A stretch of 64,000 bases of DNA from contig CAJVPI010000025.1 of the NCBI GenBank assembly GCA_910592345.1, forward strand, positions 1 to 64,000. Reading direction: 5' to 3'. Positions 26,473 through 49,971 of the stretch are shown piece by piece. A program made the translations under genes and the position numbers. The notes below the pieces were generated by a model that ran no database searches, was not told where the DNA came from, and saw only the letters and a list, made by a program, of their open reading frames with translations. Position 1 is the first letter of the stretch. The number at the start of each line of letters is the position of its first letter. This DNA is from Paraglomus brasilianum. Lineage: Eukaryota.

Positions 26473-29400
26473 TTACGGCAATTTTTTATTACGTCTTATT
26501 AAGTTCTGAAGATAAACTATCAATGTCCTTCCGAACACTGATGACCATATATGGATTGCAATGAGCCATGAAATAAAGATGAGAGAAATAAAGTACAGAA
26601 TATATGTGTATCTTACACCATAGAGTAAAGAATAAATAGTCATTAACAGAAGCATGCTACTAGTGACAGCTCGAGACCTATAGTAAACAAATATGGGACG
26701 ACAGTCAGTTAGTGAATGCTCTTAATACGCGCAAAGTATGTAAATAGTTTTAATCCAAATTCCTAATAACCGCCATTCAATCAACAATAAACTCAAACTC
26801 TTTTTACCTGCCAGATGTCCTCGGTAACATTTTCCCACTATTCATTATTTCCACATAGAATATTATTGGTGCTATTGCTAAGATGCTATGATCCGATGAG
26901 AATGGTGCATACCAATGTACTGCCAAATTCCTACTCCACACCATTAACGCCGGGACATTAAAAGGAAGCAGAATGAACAAAAATATAAGCACTGATTGAA
27001 CGTAATGATAATGATCCCAATGTTTCTGCAGGTCAGCACCCTTTCCCTGTGAAAAGAAAACTGTGTTAGCACCATTTATAAACCCGGAAAAGCAGAACAG
27101 GAAATCGGATACTATGACGTTGACCATCAACTATCTCTACTTACAGCTGACCATGCATTCATCAATGATCGTATGCATGATACTGTATGCACTACGAATG
27201 CTGCTACGAACGCAAGTTGATATGGTATGAACGCTGCAACGAGCACAAACACGAAGATGGTAGCTATAGTCCTCCGACGCATACCAGCCATCTTAGATTC
27301 TTGTTGCCTATAATACAAATAACCGTTAAAACAGCGAACGCTAATAATCAATACGAGTCAACTGTGGATAATTCTATTTCTTTTCTCGACCACCACCAAT
27401 AAGAGTTGATCTCTCGCATCTTAAAACGCTTACCTATTTACAACGCGAGCCAATGAGAATCCTCTCCAGTTGATAGCAATTATCATTCTAGTCAATAGTC
27501 TGACCAACAACGACAGAAATATCCAACACACAGATGTAACCCCAACGCTCAGGATGAGAAAAAGCGGATGTAAAAACCAAAAAAATGGATCATGATTGCC
27601 AAGAAGGGTGTCATTAACATTAAAGGATGCCTTTTCTTTTATAGCCTTATGTACATCTCCGGGCGTAGACTCGACTGGGAATAAGTCTGCTAACGAATAC
27701 GTTTTAGATGCTCCGCTTATGGATTGGTATATCGATAAGAGCGACACAAACACGAGTAACTTGGGCAATGTTCTTTGAACGAACTGTGCAAGTCCTTGTC
27801 CAAAGCTCATATACGATCCTATGAAAAATCAACAATATTTATAGTATTGATAAAAAATTAATGGCAGTATTCGAATACGATATCAGCATGTACAGTATTA
27901 AACAGTTCATAAATCCACGCGTGACACACGTCAAATAAAACCAATCGGAATGTAATCCCTCTCGACAATACATACCACCTTTCTGATATTCTTTCAATTG
28001 GATCCTCAAAGTCATTACCACAACCATGAAGGGAAACGCCACCAAAACGGACTGAAATCTCATTACGATCTTTCCTAAACTTCCGTATGCATCCAGTCTG
28101 ATGTCTATTGATAAAGGCGCTGAACATGTTGGGTCTATCCAAAATTGTAGACTGAGACCTTTCCGCAGTTTCGGGCTGCTGACTGGAAGGACAAATGGCG
28201 CCTGTCCATGGATATTGATATCAACATTTTGGGCATTGACCAAGAACTTGGATTCATGCATCGATGATATCGATTGGCGAATGAGTGTAGCAAAGAACCG
28301 ATCGTCTAGAGGACAAGTCGATTAGTGCCTGGTAAAGGATGAATATTGAACGATATTTATATCTTACCATCACAGCCAGGACGATTCACAAACATCTTGT
28401 ATGTCAAAAGGCTATTATCAATTATTGGTACGTGCAGAGTAGACACGATGGAATCAGTCATTGGGAGTCCGGGAACATGTATGCCATAAAGCAGGAGATC
28501 TAAATCAAAATTATAATTGAATAACGATTAAGCTGGTAACAAGTCTAATAACATTAACGACAACTAATACAAAAGTCGCCGGTGAATGAAACGATAAAAA
28601 CGATGAAATTCTATTTATATCAGAAAACTGCACACCTTTCATTGACGTGTCAATCCGCGTGACGGTCTTACTTTCATCAATAAATTCGGCTAGTAGAAAA
28701 CCATCAAGTCCCACACCTTCTTTATTCATTATAGCAACATACTGATAGTCTCCCAACTCTTGCACATTCAATTTCAGAAAACTGAAAGTGCGTCTAGATG
28801 AAGGAATTCTATCGTATTTTGTTGATGCAGGCATTAGGGATGCTTTATGAGATGCATTGTAACACGACAACCTTGGAGCGCTAAGGAACGTTGCCTTCTC
28901 CGTCGTCGCATCGTGCACGTCACGTAATTTGCTAGGTATGACTCCACATAACAAGACTAGCAAACGTGAAGATTTCCCGAGATGCTGATCGGTAAGCAGA
29001 GAGAATGTTGTCAAATTAGATAGAGGAGTTGGTGGTGGAATTGGCATAAGGTACACTTTGTTTGAGATGTGCGATGTCCTGAGTACTAATCTCTGCTCCA
29101 TATGAAGATATACATGAGGTTTCTCTTCTAGATCCAACACTCCGAAAGATTCTATAAAATAAGTCATGAGGTATGGAACGGTAAAATTATTAATAACAAC
29201 GCCAAGGTGGTTGACATCAAGCTCACAACTATGTGAAAAAAGCTTCTTATTCTTATGCAGCAACCAATGTAATCCTAGATGCTTACCCCATTGATCCCGT
29301 TCAGTCTCCAGCCGATCTTCAAGACCAGTCAAGAGTGCCTTACGAAATATTTTCATACGTTCCGCTCTTGGCTTTGTCTGACCTGCACGCCTTACATCGA

Positions 29401-30733
29401 CTATATTCAACATTGTCTTTGCAATAACGTTAACTAATTGCTTGCACCATAAAATACATTGATGATCCATTGACGTCCACACACTCGGTATTGATGTGGT
29501 GAATACAGTGAATCCATGTGATGCTGGGACAAGAGAGTTAATATTGGCTGTATCTGAGCAGATGATAGTATCTAGATTGCCACCGGCTATGGAAATAAGC
29601 GTGACATCCGACAATGGAGCCGAGGACGCTTTGCCATTGGAATAGCTTTTCCGCCAGTATTCGTTAATGTTTGTATAAATTTTGCTTATTTGCCAATCAA
29701 GCGGCGCAGGTGGAAGCAGGTGGGGAGTTGCCATAGTGATAATTGTGTTTATGGAACCAGGTTCATAATTAGGCATAGTAAATAATGTCCGGGCAACTAT
29801 TCCACCCATCGAATGAGCAATAATAATTACGGAAGATGGTTCCGGATGATCTCCGCGTGCAGCTGGATACAATGAAAGTATGTATCGAATAGCATCATTG
29901 AGATACTCTGCCTGTTCAAGCAATGAATTTCCATGAAGTGCAGAGAATTCCTCATTGAAATCAACTATATACAAAAAAGAAGAGTTATTTAATTGCAAAT
30001 TAACACTATTACAGAAACAGAATAGGCATGACGCTCTCACCGCTTCTTACTTATTTCCAATACCTGTGAAAAAATCTAATCCTCTCATACTATCGTCCCA
30101 TTCTGATAGTCCGCTATAATACAAGTTGGCTGCAGCAGATGCGATTGATCTTACTTGCTTGTAGCTTCCAGCATTCCCGGGGATAAACAGAGTAGGTATA
30201 CCGGTTGGTCTATCGCTGTTGTCTTTTCCAGCTTCTCTATACAAATATAATCCATATTTCTCAGCAAATATAGTCTGTTCACTATCAAATCCCACCATCT
30301 TAATATATCTGGGATTCATGTATGTAACTTCGCAGCCCTTTGTATCTCTTTGATAATTTATGAATGAGTCAAAAATGAGCCCAGACATAATCATAGTAAT
30401 TAATAGTATTAAGATTATTGAGAATGACAAGGATATTGATGCAGATGTATTGAGTAGTGAAGATAAATGCGAGGGCGATTTATTTCCGTGTGATTCGGAA
30501 AGTGAATTGGAATCGGGAGTGGAGCTTGAGTTCGATTGCGGGTTAATTAAATTGGTAGATAATAAAGGTGCCTCTTCATTGGAAATGGGCGATGTAGGTG
30601 ACGGTGTGCGCTCTCTAGTCTGTTGTCCATTTGAGCCGCCGATACTTGACGTAAAGATATCAAATGTTCTCGTGTCATAGTATTGCGGTGTGATTTGAAG
30701 TGTTTCGCATTGTTCTGATTCATGTATACCCAT
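26473..30733 (-). CDS. BST1: GPI inositol-deacylase (PGAP1/Bst1), multi-exon, multi-TM
   Basis: 'GCEVTYMNPRY', 'LFIPGNAGSYKQVRS', 'DFNEEFSALHG', lipase motif 'IAHSMGG', 'MATPH', 'MDHQCILWC', several C-terminal TM segments. Confidence 0.95.
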
Positions 30734-45192: not shown

Positions 45193-46434
45193 TCAGTCTG
45201 GCTGGACAGGTAAAACTACTTGCTGAACTTCATATAAGTCGATGGTAATATTAGTAGCCATCAATGCAGCAGGCGGTGGTGCAAATGGAACATATCCAAT
45301 GGCAGGAACCGGCGGATCGTAAAACACGTCGCTAACGGGGATGTTGATTATATAGTCCGGGTTGTTTAGGGCATTGCAACCATTAACGCCAGTAGCAGAT
45401 CCGTCTTTGTTGATGGTCCCAAATTTCCACTACCATATAAAAATTTTTGAACATGACAGGATGTATAAATTTCTCTCTCTAGACAAGTAAACCTTACCGT
45501 TTGCCTTCGCACCCCTTGTCGCCAAAGAATAGCCTAATATAAATATTGAAAAACTATTAATATAAAAAATTATATAATAATGAAATAGCAAGATATACCT
45601 TCATGGCCCGATCTCTGTATCCTTGTGCATTGCGTGTATCCTTTATTTCGTAAAGCTTGATGCCGAGTATGGCTCGTACATACGGCTCTCGCTTCCATTT
45701 CCTGCACTTGTCTTTTAAGGAGGAGGAGCTTTGGCCCATGGCTACTTCAACCACTATCCTCGAATAAGGGTTTCCCTACATAAACCATATTATATCAACC
45801 ACGAACAATAGATATTAATATGACAAATTCAAAGTACTCTCGTATTACTCGGAGGGGGGCTAGGGTGTGGGACTGGTGGTTGTGGAACAAAAAGATGATG
45901 TGGTTGGACAGCGAGATCTGGCATTATACGGGATCCATCTCGACTTGGCGATTCGTGTACTGTGTGGAAAGGAGATGATATGAAATCAACAAGCCAAAGA
46001 TCAAGTAAACTGGAAGGAATTCCCTTACATGACTGTCCAACAATTTGTAGTGGAGCATTAAAATCGCGAACGCCACCGTTTGGAACATCAAAGCGTTTGA
46101 TCAACAGAATAACAACTTTCTCATGTTCAGCTGTGGGCATATCAACTATGAATACAGTGCCGTTTTTATACTCAATCTTGTATCCAATCCTGTCTTTGCT
46201 TTCGATGAAAGAGTTGAAATCTTGCACGGATACGTCTGAGGCAAGCGGATAAGGAAGACTACAATCCATACAAGTCAATACGAGACGTATCTCAAAAAAA
46301 CAAAAAAAAAACAAACAAACTAGTGTGATGCGTGCTCACCTGGTCTCACTTATCGGCTTGCGTGGTAAATGAATCTGCCCTGATGAAAATACCTTCACCA
46401 AAGCGTTAAGTGGTTCAAGTTCAAGTCTGACCAT
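45193..46434 (-). CDS. Uma2/DUF820-like endonuclease-fold protein, 6 exons
   Basis: 'MVRLELEPLNALVK..|SLPYPLASDVSVQDFNSF..YKIEYKNGTVFIVDMPTAEHE..|..IMPDLAVQP..|GNPYSRIVVEVAMGQS..VRAILGIKLY..|AILWRQGVRRQT|WKFGT..IDLYEVQQVVL..*', all with GT-AG introns. Confidence 0.78.
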
Positions 46435-48199: not shown

Positions 48200-49971
48200 C
48201 TATAGCTGTACTTGAACAGGGTGTGGAAATTGATTATGTCGTTTGAGCGGCATTGCTGCTGACTGTCGAATGTCATTCCCACTAGAATTATTGCTTGGTG
48301 TAGATTTCTTGCATTGCTCGATGATGTCGATCGATGCTTCTATAATCTGGGCGTGCACCAAAACAGCAGATTTCCTAGCATCCAATAACTATCATATTAA
48401 AAGAAAATAAAAAATTTTCAGTTAACATCTATGAATTATTCCCAACGTGAGACCAAAATATATATATAATAATCTATATAACGTACCTTCCACTTAACCT
48501 CAAAGAGGTCATGGAACGCATCTTGAACTCTTCGTTGCCAATCGTTGGACATTCTGATGTCTCCATTATCCACGGCTTCTTTATCCCGGTCGGTACTAAG
48601 GAAGAATGTCAAGTCCGGGCAAGGAATGTTGGTGTATGAAGATTTGCACCAATTGATGTCCAAGCCTGCCGCCGCTGAAGATGCGATGGCCGTATAAATA
48701 TAATGGTCAACTATTAATGTTATACCATTACTTAGATGTTCGCGCATCGTGGGGCTAGAGAATAACAAAATATGGGATGAATATATATATACGTTGGTGC
48801 AGACGTGGAAAGAACAATATGATATTTCTTGGTTCTTTACTTACACTAATTCCCACCAATGTGCAGCAATCAACAAATGCAATGCTCTTGGTTGTGAATG
48901 TCCATTATTCTGTCGATGCTTCGTTAATGCTTCACCAGCCGGAGTAGATGCATCGGGGAACTTCCATAATTTCGCCTTGATACCCTCGTTTTTCAAAAAC
49001 TCCAACAGCTTGGCAGCTTGCATGGTAGTCGCTCCATCTTCGTAACCCTCGAGGACGATCAATGCACCACGAGAGGACGAGGGTGCTGAGGTTGTAGTAG
49101 GTGAAGCAACTGGAGCAAGAGGACTAAGCAGAGGCTGAGGTGGGCTGCGTGAAAAGCTAGGCAGTCGATGTATACTTGGAATGTTGATAGTCGACCGTAT
49201 AATTTCACTTGGCAATTGTTTGGCACCTCTAAGATGAGATAGTTCTTTAGCGCCACGTTCAATGATAACAACGGATTGGTTAGAAGCCATTCTGTGACTG
49301 ACGATATCCGCAGATCGTCTGTCAGTCTTTGCGTTAATCTCTACTAGAAAATTATCCATTACGCTTTCTCGGGTATCTCGTGGTTTAATATTCTTGATGA
49401 CAGGGCCCGCCCTCCGTCGTGGTTGATATTTATAGTCTGGGTATGCTCTCATATGACTTTCTTTAGCCTCTTCGGCCTTGCGCTTCCATTCTTCTCTCTC
49501 TTCCTCGGAAAGATTCTTCCAATGATCAGCGACAATGCGCGAGATTTCACTGTTATTAATACCCGGATTTTGATTGAGGATTAGTGGGTGGTGATGTTGT
49601 CTATATAAGATGAATGAATTGGGAGGGCGAGGAATATAGGGTTTCTTCTGCTTTGTTGTAGACTTGGCAGAAGTCTTGTTATCCATGTCGTCTATATTAA
49701 GTTGAGAATCTTGAAGACGCCGGCGTTTGGTTTCAACGTCAGCGGTAGTATCTAGCTGCCTCTTGTTTGTTTGAGGAGAGCTTGGAGCGGTCGATATGGG
49801 TGAAGAACACCATTCATCGTGATTGATCAGATTAGATATGCTCGCAGCCGAGTGTAATGGAGAAAGTGCGCTGTTTGGGGAAGAAGAGTGCAACTCGCAG
49901 TTTGAAGGTGAGGGGAGTTGTTCGGTATTTTCGTCGCTGTGTGTTTCGGGAGTTTCTGCTGGTGTGCTCAT
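48200..49971 (-). CDS. HMG-box (Rox1/SOX/MATA-type) transcription factor fused to a degenerate thymidylate kinase (Cdc8/DTYMK-like) domain; 3 exons, 527 aa
   Basis: Exons 49971-48845, 48754-48487 and 48388-48200 (1584 nt, in frame). HMG: 'IPRPPNSFILYRQHHH..NSEISRIVADHWKNLS..HMRAYPDYKYQPRRR'. TMPK-like: 'RGALIVLEG..FPDASTPAG..LHLLIAAHWWE..GITLIVDHY..GLDINWCK..PDLTFFL..WK|LLDA'. Confidence 0.9.

What the first reader, a model, noticed from the sequence alone, without database searches (positions are those of the whole stretch)
48200..49971. HMG-box transcription factor fused to a catalytically altered thymidylate kinase fold
Seen in the sequence: a Rox1/SOX-class HMG box (about 49650-49410) and the start of a TMPK domain (about 49075) lie in the same exon. 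Two further exons complete the TMPK fold with no stops or frameshifts, so this is not two merged genes or ordinary decay. Established: Cdc8/DTYMK enzymes use a P-loop GxDRxGK(T/S)T, an NRWE motif, the catalytic DR(Y) motif and an Arg-rich LID. Here these read GYEDGATT (no Lys), HWWE, DHY and AVDNGDIRMS, while structural residues are retained (RGALIVLEG, FP, HLL, GLDxxWCK, PDLxxFL, WKxxDA). Inference: a pseudo-kinase module kept as a dTMP/nucleotide sensor or dimerisation domain (TMPKs are dimers, so heterodimers with the true Cdc8 are conceivable), coupling nucleotide status to transcription. I know of no characterised HMG-TMPK fusion, but I cannot check databases.
Basis: partly seen in the sequence, partly recalled or inferred. 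Interest (0 to 1): 0.88.

Follow-up and report, generated by a model that had tools for sequence, protein, structure and literature searches.

The report
Mycorrhizal HMG factor with dead kinase
Arbuscular mycorrhizal fungi of all five orders share a spliced, conserved gene that joins a SOX-like DNA-binding box to a thymidylate-kinase fold stripped of its ATP- and dTMP-binding residues, and that fold likely serves as a pairing module of a transcription regulator, not as an enzyme or nucleotide sensor.

Summary
Three exons on the minus strand give a 527-aa protein, identical to an annotated Paraglomus brasilianum protein, with a Pfam HMG box (113-181) and a thymidylate-kinase (TMPK) domain (316-480). 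RNA-derived contigs splice both introns. One contig runs from the end of the HMG box to near the stop codon.

Orthologues occur in 11 genera from all five Glomeromycetes orders. No fusion outside them appeared among the 150 best of 1.84 billion cluster representatives. Variants in the TMPK domain are mostly silent (16 synonymous codons, 2 residue changes). The predicted fold matches human TMPK (Z 25, rmsd 2.2).

The family has lost the ATP-site residues (Lys19, Arg16, LID) and the dTMP-pocket residues (Arg45, Phe72, Arg76, Phe105). Arg97 varies (R/K/H/G); DHY occurs only in Paraglomus. The dimer helix and fold core are kept.

Best reading (0.5): a likely repressor-type HMG factor whose pseudo-TMPK domain is a dimerisation or interaction module. 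Dimerisation is untested. A separate CDC8 is supported only indirectly. No description was found in the searches run.

The parts
48845..49971 (-). Exon 1 (residues 1-376): disordered N-terminus, HMG box, linker, first third of the pseudo-TMPK domain
   Evidence: covered in pieces by RNA-derived contigs
49816..49851 (-). Conserved motif SAASISNLINHD (residues 41-52), an EH1-like IxxLI that lacks the first Phe; candidate co-repressor (Tup1) contact
   Evidence: residues 42-52 identical 11/11 in the 10 orthologue models P0008-P0017, with poorly conserved flanks; core in 16 proteins; function inferred from PMC4943189 passages
49717..49728 (-). Basic run KRRR (residues 82-85), candidate nuclear localisation signal; orthologues have KKKRK or KKRRK upstream of the HMG box
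   Evidence: function inferred
49429..49635 (-). HMG box (residues 113-181), SOX/SRY-like, with a basic C-terminal tail to about residue 188
   Evidence: Pfam; best HMG hits in PDB are an SRY/HMGB1 chimera and SOX9/11/2/4; 66-68 of 79 residues identical in complete orthologues
48305..49071 (-). Pseudo-thymidylate-kinase domain (residues 301-493), spread over three exons
   Evidence: PF02223; human TMPK E 3e-33; AF2 model Z 25, rmsd 2.2 over 189 residues; below the TIGR00041 cutoff, 60.6 vs 83.25 bits
49021..49047 (-). Degenerate P-loop G309-YEDGATT-M317 (Asp15>Glu, Arg16>Asp, Lys19>Thr, Thr21>Met)
48730..48891 (-). Helix alpha3 (residues 361-384, split by intron 1): the dimer helix of human TMPK. 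His69, Leu70, Leu71, Trp77, Glu78 and Pro81 are kept; the dTMP contacts Phe72 and Arg76 are lost
   Evidence: PMC8679000 passages
48755..48844 (-). Intron 1, 90 nt, phase 2 within codon 376; same position in orthologue L001
   Evidence: (joints in X1 and X6)
48487..48754 (-). Exon 2 (residues 376-465), with DHY (48700-48708) and the collapsed LID (48544-48591)
48389..48486 (-). Intron 2, 98 nt, phase 0 after Trp-Lys
   Evidence: skipped in 4 of 4 runs laid
48200..48388 (-). Exon 3 (residues 466-527 and stop): last strand and helix of the fold, variable tail, conserved C-terminal V-[HQ]-[VI]-Q-L motif

Best explanation
This is a Glomeromycota gene for an HMG-box protein fused to a thymidylate-kinase fold that has lost its ATP- and dTMP-binding residues; the protein likely acts as a sequence-specific, probably repressing transcription factor in which the dead kinase fold serves as a dimerisation or protein-interaction module. 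Shown: the gene model, splicing, family range, loss of both nucleotide sites, retention of the fold core and helix alpha3, and purifying selection. Inferred: a genomic copy of the eukaryotic TMPK (CDC8) gene fused to an HMG gene before the AMF orders split, lost catalysis in a burst of change and was then held constant. Also inferred: alpha3 pairs two subunits so that two HMG boxes bind paired sites or loop DNA, and the N-terminal IxxLI motif recruits a Tup1-type co-repressor.
For: Architecture: 18 of the 180 proteins held carry both domains, and all 18 are Glomeromycota-named. Members come from 11 genera and all five named orders. Expression: intron 2 is skipped in 4 of 4 runs, intron 1 is joined in 2 of 4, and one 1062-nt contig spans 48208-49457. 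Catalytic loss: none of the 24 family proteins that include the P-loop segment has a Lys there. Among 27 proteins, none keeps Arg45 or Phe72 and all 27 have Trp at Arg76. Among 118 TMPK-like representatives (two of them family members), these residues are kept in 112, 112, 111 and 114. Arg97 is R/K/H/G in the family but R in 117 of 118 representatives. The LID is the least conserved segment (27% identity). Kept: 36 positions invariant in both the family and 3 canonical TMPKs, mostly core and alpha3. In human TMPK, alpha3 forms the monomer-monomer interface and Phe72/Arg76 contact dTMP (PMC8679000 passages). Selection: 16 synonymous codons vs 2 residue changes in the domain, against 8:8 sites in linker and termini (Fisher p 0.02); pS 0.86 and pN 0.25 against L001. 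The family is one clade on a long stem (1.16) with short inner branches. TMPK-class genes number 2-3 per thymidylate synthase gene in 3 of 3 AMF and 1 in 10 of 10 other fungi (PMC4771724 Table S5 rows).
Against: Conservation of alpha3 may reflect core packing; surface exposure was not computed. Pro81 is not general among active TMPKs (20 of 118). Several pocket positions switched to new invariant residues (Glu311, Asp312, His371, Trp372), which could mark a new ligand site. The N-terminal motif reads IxxLI and misses the published [VI]xx[IL][LM] pattern at its last position; the paper itself calls such short motifs poorly specified. No intact AMF CDC8 sequence was retrieved. The tree does not resolve the donor and holds no named Mucoromycota or AMF Cdc8. 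In R. irregularis a 404-aa form without the TMPK domain is on deposit. The variant counts are small and pooled from low-depth contigs of unknown strains.
Confidence: 0.5

Rival explanations
1. The old substrate cleft has been re-tooled to bind a different ligand (a metabolite, metal, cation or peptide) that switches the transcription factor, as the beta-amylase domain is proposed to do in plant BZR1-BAMs.
For: Pocket positions did not simply drift: Asp15>Glu, Arg16>Asp, Lys19>Thr, Asn75>His, Arg76>Trp and Asp121>Tyr are fixed across 11 family rows. Segments beta2 and alpha1 are better conserved in the family than among 3 canonical TMPKs (81% vs 45%, 71% vs 50%). Precedent: PMC6394054 passages.
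Against: Positions 45, 72, 97 and 105, which line the cleft, vary freely. The LID varies in length and sequence. Large invariant residues such as Trp may simply fill the empty pocket.
Confidence: 0.22
2. The domain heterodimerises with the true Cdc8, bringing dTDP synthesis to chromatin or letting Cdc8 levels tune the factor, so transcription is coupled to thymidine nucleotide supply.
For: The alpha3 residues His69, Leu70, Leu71, Ala74, Trp77 and Glu78 are identical to canonical TMPK. TMPKs are dimers. AMF hold extra TMPK-class genes, so a partner probably exists.
Against: The domain is only 32-36% identical to canonical TMPKs over its length and sits on a long stem. No AMF Cdc8 sequence was in hand to compare.
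Confidence: 0.14
3. The domain is a dTMP/dTDP/ATP sensor that keeps the nucleotide pocket.
For: The fold is intact. Asp96 and Tyr98 are kept, and Arg97 is kept in 19 of 27 proteins.
Against: Phe72, Arg76, Arg45, Phe105, the LID Glu/Tyr and the P-loop Lys are absent throughout. The P-loop is acidic and is modelled as a helix extension from residue 312. Arg97 is His or Gly in the Paraglomus and Ambispora proteins.
Confidence: 0.06
4. The working product is mostly an HMG-only protein, and the TMPK part is a minor isoform or a passenger.
For: The R. irregularis orthologue is on deposit as a 404-aa 'MATA-HMG' (ANQ32280-84) that ends before the domain. Several database models hold only one of the two domains.
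Against: In this window both domains start in one exon and one contig joins them. The 404-aa form ends in a short tail where L001 has an intron, which looks like intron read-through. The domain is about 65% identical across orders and under purifying selection.
Confidence: 0.05
5. The domain is still an active dTMP kinase with an unusual active site and may be the AMF Cdc8.
For: Automatic names such as 'bifunctional thymidylate/uridylate kinase'. No separate AMF CDC8 sequence was retrieved here.
Against: There is no Walker A Lys, no P-loop Arg and no basic LID. The score is below the TIGR00041 cutoff in 3 of 3 family proteins, while 2 of 2 canonical controls pass. AMF hold 2-3 TMPK-class genes.
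Confidence: 0.03

Closest known systems
Eukaryotic type I thymidylate kinase (human DTYMK, yeast Cdc8; PF02223, TIGR00041)
   Same: Fold (Z 25, rmsd 2.2), about 35% identity, core motifs, helix alpha3, and probably the intron before Pro81 (canid isoforms P0018 and P0026 carry an insertion at that point).
   Different: ATP-site and dTMP-site residues are lost, the LID has collapsed, and the domain is fused to an HMG box with long disordered regions.
Fungal MATA-HMG / SOX-TCF class HMG-box factors, expanded in AMF (over 100 in G. rosea, PMC4771724 passage); Rox1 (likeness recalled, not tested)
   Same: A single HMG box with SOX/SRY-like best hits and a basic tail. The R. irregularis orthologue was deposited as a truncated 'MATA-HMG'.
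   Different: It carries a C-terminal pseudo-TMPK domain and is nearly invariant across all AMF orders (66-68 of 79 HMG residues). No link to mating was tested.
Plant BZR1-BAM transcription factors (BAM7/BAM8)
   Same: A lineage-wide fusion of a DNA-binding domain to a copy of a metabolic enzyme that no longer works as the enzyme (PMC6394054 passages).
   Different: Unrelated domains. In BAM8 a residue predicted to bind ligand is needed for activity, whereas here the ligand-binding residues are lost.
MAGUK guanylate-kinase-like domains (recalled, no call)
   Same: A nucleoside-monophosphate-kinase fold turned into a non-catalytic protein-interaction module.
   Different: Derived from guanylate kinase, found in animal scaffolds, not fused to a DNA-binding domain.

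Membership tests
Active type I thymidylate kinase | TMPK fold and homology (PF02223) | tested here: met
   74.6 bits vs cutoff 27; Z 25; E 5.8e-13 for a model built without canonical TMPKs in its alignment
Active type I thymidylate kinase | P-loop G-x-D-R-x-G-K-[ST] | tested here: not met
   0 of 29 family proteins match; 24 include the segment and none has Lys
Active type I thymidylate kinase | dTMP contacts Phe72, Arg76, Arg45, Phe/Tyr105 | tested here: not met
   absent in all family rows; present in 111-116 of 118 representatives
Active type I thymidylate kinase | DRX motif with Arg97 | tested here: not met
   His in this protein; R 19, K 5, H 2, G 1 of 27
Active type I thymidylate kinase | LID with Arg143 and E-R-Y-E | tested here: not met
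Active type I thymidylate kinase | TIGR00041 equivalog cutoff | tested here: not met
   58.9-60.6 bits in 3 of 3 family proteins vs 83.25; controls 124.6 and 113.5
Active type I thymidylate kinase | dTMP kinase activity; homodimer through alpha3 | not testable with these tools
   needs an assay; the complex predictor was not available
SOX/TCF/MATA-class HMG-box transcription factor | Single HMG box with SOX/SRY-type best hits and a basic C-terminal tail | tested here: met
   PF00505 E 8e-24; PDB hits; tail YKYQPRRR in 7 of 7 rows shown
SOX/TCF/MATA-class HMG-box transcription factor | Sequence-specific DNA binding and bending; nuclear location | not testable with these tools
   basic runs only
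Mucorales SexM/SexP mating-type HMG | Locus flanked by triose-phosphate transporter and RNA helicase genes (PMC7490403 passage) | tested here: inconclusive
   the nearest downstream ORF is a Sel1 repeat, and none of 15 window ORFs scanned matched such families; not all ORFs were scanned
Transcription factor-pseudoenzyme sensor (BZR1-BAM type) | Ligand-binding residues kept while catalysis is lost | tested here: not met
   the original ligand contacts are lost; a new ligand is not excluded
Tup1-recruiting repressor | Conserved [VI]xx[IL][LM] motif outside domains | tested here: inconclusive
   a conserved IxxLI differs from the pattern at its last position

The most novel reading that the evidence does not exclude
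A founding invention of arbuscular mycorrhizal fungi: a core transcription factor, kept in all five orders, whose thymidylate-kinase shell was re-tooled into a new signalling surface. It either binds a new ligand through its fixed Glu/Asp/His/Trp substitutions or pairs with the true Cdc8, and so ties nuclear proliferation or symbiotic state to gene expression. This would be the first pseudo-TMPK regulatory domain.
Probability: 0.36. Interest if true: 0.85.

Novelty: new variant of a known kind. Interest (0 to 1): 0.66.

Why it matters
AMF carry over a hundred HMG-box genes and almost no characterised transcription factors. This one stands apart: it is nearly invariant across all five orders, it is expressed in rhizosphere and root-associated data, and it carries a domain not found fused to HMG elsewhere in these searches. 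That makes it a strong candidate core regulator of the symbiotic lineage. It can be studied without AMF genetics, through DAP-seq, yeast assays, purified protein and host-induced silencing. It also adds thymidylate kinase to the enzymes turned into pseudoenzyme modules, and it flags database entries that are mis-named as active kinases or truncated to 'MATA-HMG'.

Tried and rejected
No whole genome is held, so a separate CDC8 could not be sought directly. tblastn of two canonical TMPKs finds only this locus in the window. Twenty representatives were looked up by name; apart from P0038 (Ambispora fusion) none was an AMF protein, so no AMF Cdc8 was found. A second read-laying run gave no answer; only 4 of the 20 holder runs were laid.

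The ESM Atlas gave only ordinary TMPK clusters for the domain and no usable hit for the whole protein; this shows neither novelty nor absence. The first AF2 model was weak in the C-terminal half. The second included four canonical TMPK rows and so leans towards that fold. The trees do not place the donor; one search left out rows under 150 aa and fragment P0172. The linker count typed (7:8) was wrong and was corrected to 8:8.

Literature searches showed no description in their listings; two searches returned 0 papers. Supplements of PMC8778642 (1 file) and PMC7490403 (12 of 13 files) held no thymidylate-kinase term. Riley et al. 2014 on AMF MATA-HMG genes was seen only in a reference list; it and other subscription papers may mention the domain. 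Earlier scan findings: none.

Rejected: a gene-merge artefact, pseudogene decay, an active kinase, and a bacterial origin of the domain (best hits are eukaryotic type I, and the introns are shared across AMF).

Full report
Observation. The minus strand holds an open frame from 49971 to 48845 that encodes an HMG box and the start of a TMPK-like domain. Two GT..AG introns of 90 and 98 nt join it to exons 48754-48487 and 48388-48200. The result is 527 aa without stops. A 527-aa protein annotated in Paraglomus brasilianum (P0001) is identical over the searched region and matches the model. Pfam gives HMG_box at 113-181 (E 8e-24) and Thymidylate_kin at 316-480 (E 1.1e-20).

Expression. Twenty listed runs from 13 studies hold part of the stretch, and four were laid. 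One is on record as RNA; three are guessed to be RNA. Intron 2 is skipped in 4 of 4 runs. Intron 1 is joined in X1 and X6, with loose ends at both of its borders in X5, and the bin inside it has no depth in any run. One 1062-nt contig covers 48208-49457 with both introns removed, from the last helix of the HMG box to near the stop codon. These are assembled contigs, so they show presence of the spliced form, not its level.

Family. Word-indexed searches with the linker and TMPK part found orthologues in Rhizophagus, Glomus, Funneliformis, Acaulospora, Diversispora, Racocetra, Cetraspora, Dentiscutata and Entrophospora. A full HMMER scan of 1.84 billion representatives added Ambispora leptoticha. 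With Paraglomus this makes 11 genera, covering all five named orders of Glomeromycetes (one taxon looked up per order). The scan listed the best 150 of 10,903 hits. Four of the 150 carry both domains, all from AMF; 18 of all 180 proteins then held do, all Glomeromycota-named. A non-AMF fusion should have scored on both domains and ranked high. That is inference, and a fragment could represent such a cluster. Many database models are partial. Three Funneliformis models lack the P-loop segment, while the similar genomic locus L001 has it. The R. irregularis orthologue is also deposited as a 404-aa 'MATA-HMG' that stops where L001 has an intron.

What is lost. Positions follow the 212-aa canid TMPK P0022, which matches human numbering at the residues cited. 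None of 29 family proteins has G-x-D-x-x-G-K-[ST]; the 24 that include the segment have no Lys. Among 27 proteins, none keeps Arg45 or Phe72, and all have Trp for Arg76. Arg97 is Arg in 19, Lys in 5, His in 2 and Gly in 1. These rows include several models of the same species and are not independent. Among 118 TMPK-like representatives (two of them family members), Lys19 is kept in 112, Arg45 in 112, Phe72 in 111, Arg76 in 114 and Arg97 in 117. Passages read assign the roles: the P-loop Asp-Arg is catalytic in type I enzymes (PMC3169407); thymine stacks on Phe72 and the phosphate contacts Arg97 (PMC1950558); Phe72 and Arg76 contact dTMP, and alpha3 forms the dimer interface (PMC8679000). Both nucleotide sites are therefore dismantled. 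The family falls below the TIGR00041 cutoff while controls pass.

What is kept. Thirty-six positions are invariant in both 11 family rows and 3 canonical TMPKs, mainly the strands, His69-Leu70-Leu71, Ala74, Trp77-Glu78, Trp116-Cys117-Lys118 and Pro127-Asp128. Seven switched to a new invariant residue, one of them (Tyr151) in the poorly aligned LID. Against P0001, complete orthologues share 66-68 of 79 HMG residues, 84-89 of 130 in the TMPK core, about a third of the linker and 3-5 of 14-16 in the LID. AlphaFold with family rows only already matched human TMPK (E 5.8e-13). With four canonical rows added, most of the domain reached pLDDT above 90, with a weak LID and a helix running into the old P-loop; it aligned to human TMPK at Z 25, rmsd 2.2 over 189 residues.

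Selection and origin. Variants in the laid contigs give 14 synonymous and 1 non-synonymous site in the TMPK domain. Adding the replaced stretch of X6 gives 16 synonymous codons and 2 residue changes, against 8:8 in linker and termini (Fisher p 0.015-0.023). Against L001, pS is saturated at 0.86 and pN is 0.25 over 129 codons. The family is one clade on a long stem with short inner branches; its donor is unresolved. Intron 1 is at the same place in L001, and two canid isoforms carry an insertion at the homologous point. This suggests a genomic copy of a eukaryotic TMPK gene. A published KOG table gives 3, 2 and 3 TMPK-class genes per thymidylate synthase gene in G. rosea, R. irregularis and G. 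margarita, and 1 in each of 10 other fungi, including M. elongata and R. oryzae (PMC4771724, two supplement rows). This fits a separate CDC8 in AMF and no extra copy in their relatives, but it is indirect and two of the three sets are transcriptomes.

Mechanism. The HMG box has SOX/SRY-type best hits and a conserved basic tail, so sequence-specific binding is likely. A conserved island at residues 41-52 resembles the EH1-like motifs proposed for Tup1 partners but misses the pattern at one position (PMC4943189 passages). A C-terminal V-[HQ]-[VI]-Q-L motif is also conserved. I favour a repressor-type factor whose pseudo-TMPK fold pairs subunits through alpha3 (0.5). Rivals are a re-tooled ligand site (0.22), a heterodimer with Cdc8 (0.14), a dTMP sensor (0.06), an HMG-only main product (0.05) and an active kinase (0.03). 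Binding was not tested.

Novelty. The two-domain architecture sits in databases as automatic annotation. Seven literature searches showed no paper describing it; subscription papers were not searchable. Fusions of a DNA-binding domain to a spent enzyme are known, as in BZR1-BAM (PMC6394054 passages). This is therefore a new variant of a known kind, with a new domain pair and a range across the whole class. Interest 0.66.

Noticed in passing
P0028/P0030 (ANQ32280-ANQ32284): The R. irregularis orthologue is deposited as a 404-aa 'MATA-HMG' ending in a short tail at an intron position, so earlier catalogues probably missed the TMPK domain; an intron-retaining HMG-only isoform is not excluded. That intron is absent in this window.
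   Followed up: partly
P0008, P0009, P0017; L001:431-500: Three Funneliformis protein models lack the first strand and P-loop segment, while the similar genomic locus L001 has it; probably a gene-model error.
   Followed up: partly
window:48203-48232 (-): A C-terminal motif (H/R)-x-x-F-x-x-x-V-[HQ]-[VI]-Q-L is conserved after a variable tail in orthologues from three orders; no function assigned.
   Followed up: no
window:49240-49275 (-): A short conserved linker motif (SVVIIE-R/G-G-A/S-KEL, residues about 233-244) is shared by most orthologues, including Ambispora.
   Followed up: no
P0038: The Ambispora model is 1007 aa with an unrelated-looking C-terminal 270 aa, possibly a merged neighbouring gene.
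   Followed up: no
window:46983-47189 (-): A Sel1-repeat ORF lies just downstream of the gene (PF08238, E 6.5e-17).
   Followed up: partly
window:36733-37644 (+) and 45829-46335 (-): An intronless 303-aa ORF with a weak Uma2-like endonuclease match (E 2.5e-5); the second ORF looks similar by eye but had no Pfam hit.
   Followed up: partly
window:21344-21778 (+) and 27430-30733 (-): Two GPI-pathway genes, PIG-A and PGAP1/Bst1, lie within about 9 kb of each other; a TruD/Pus7 gene and an M13 peptidase are nearby.
   Followed up: partly
P0043, P0045: Unnamed representatives with two tandem TMPK domains in one chain, grouping near green-algal sequences in the tree.
   Followed up: no
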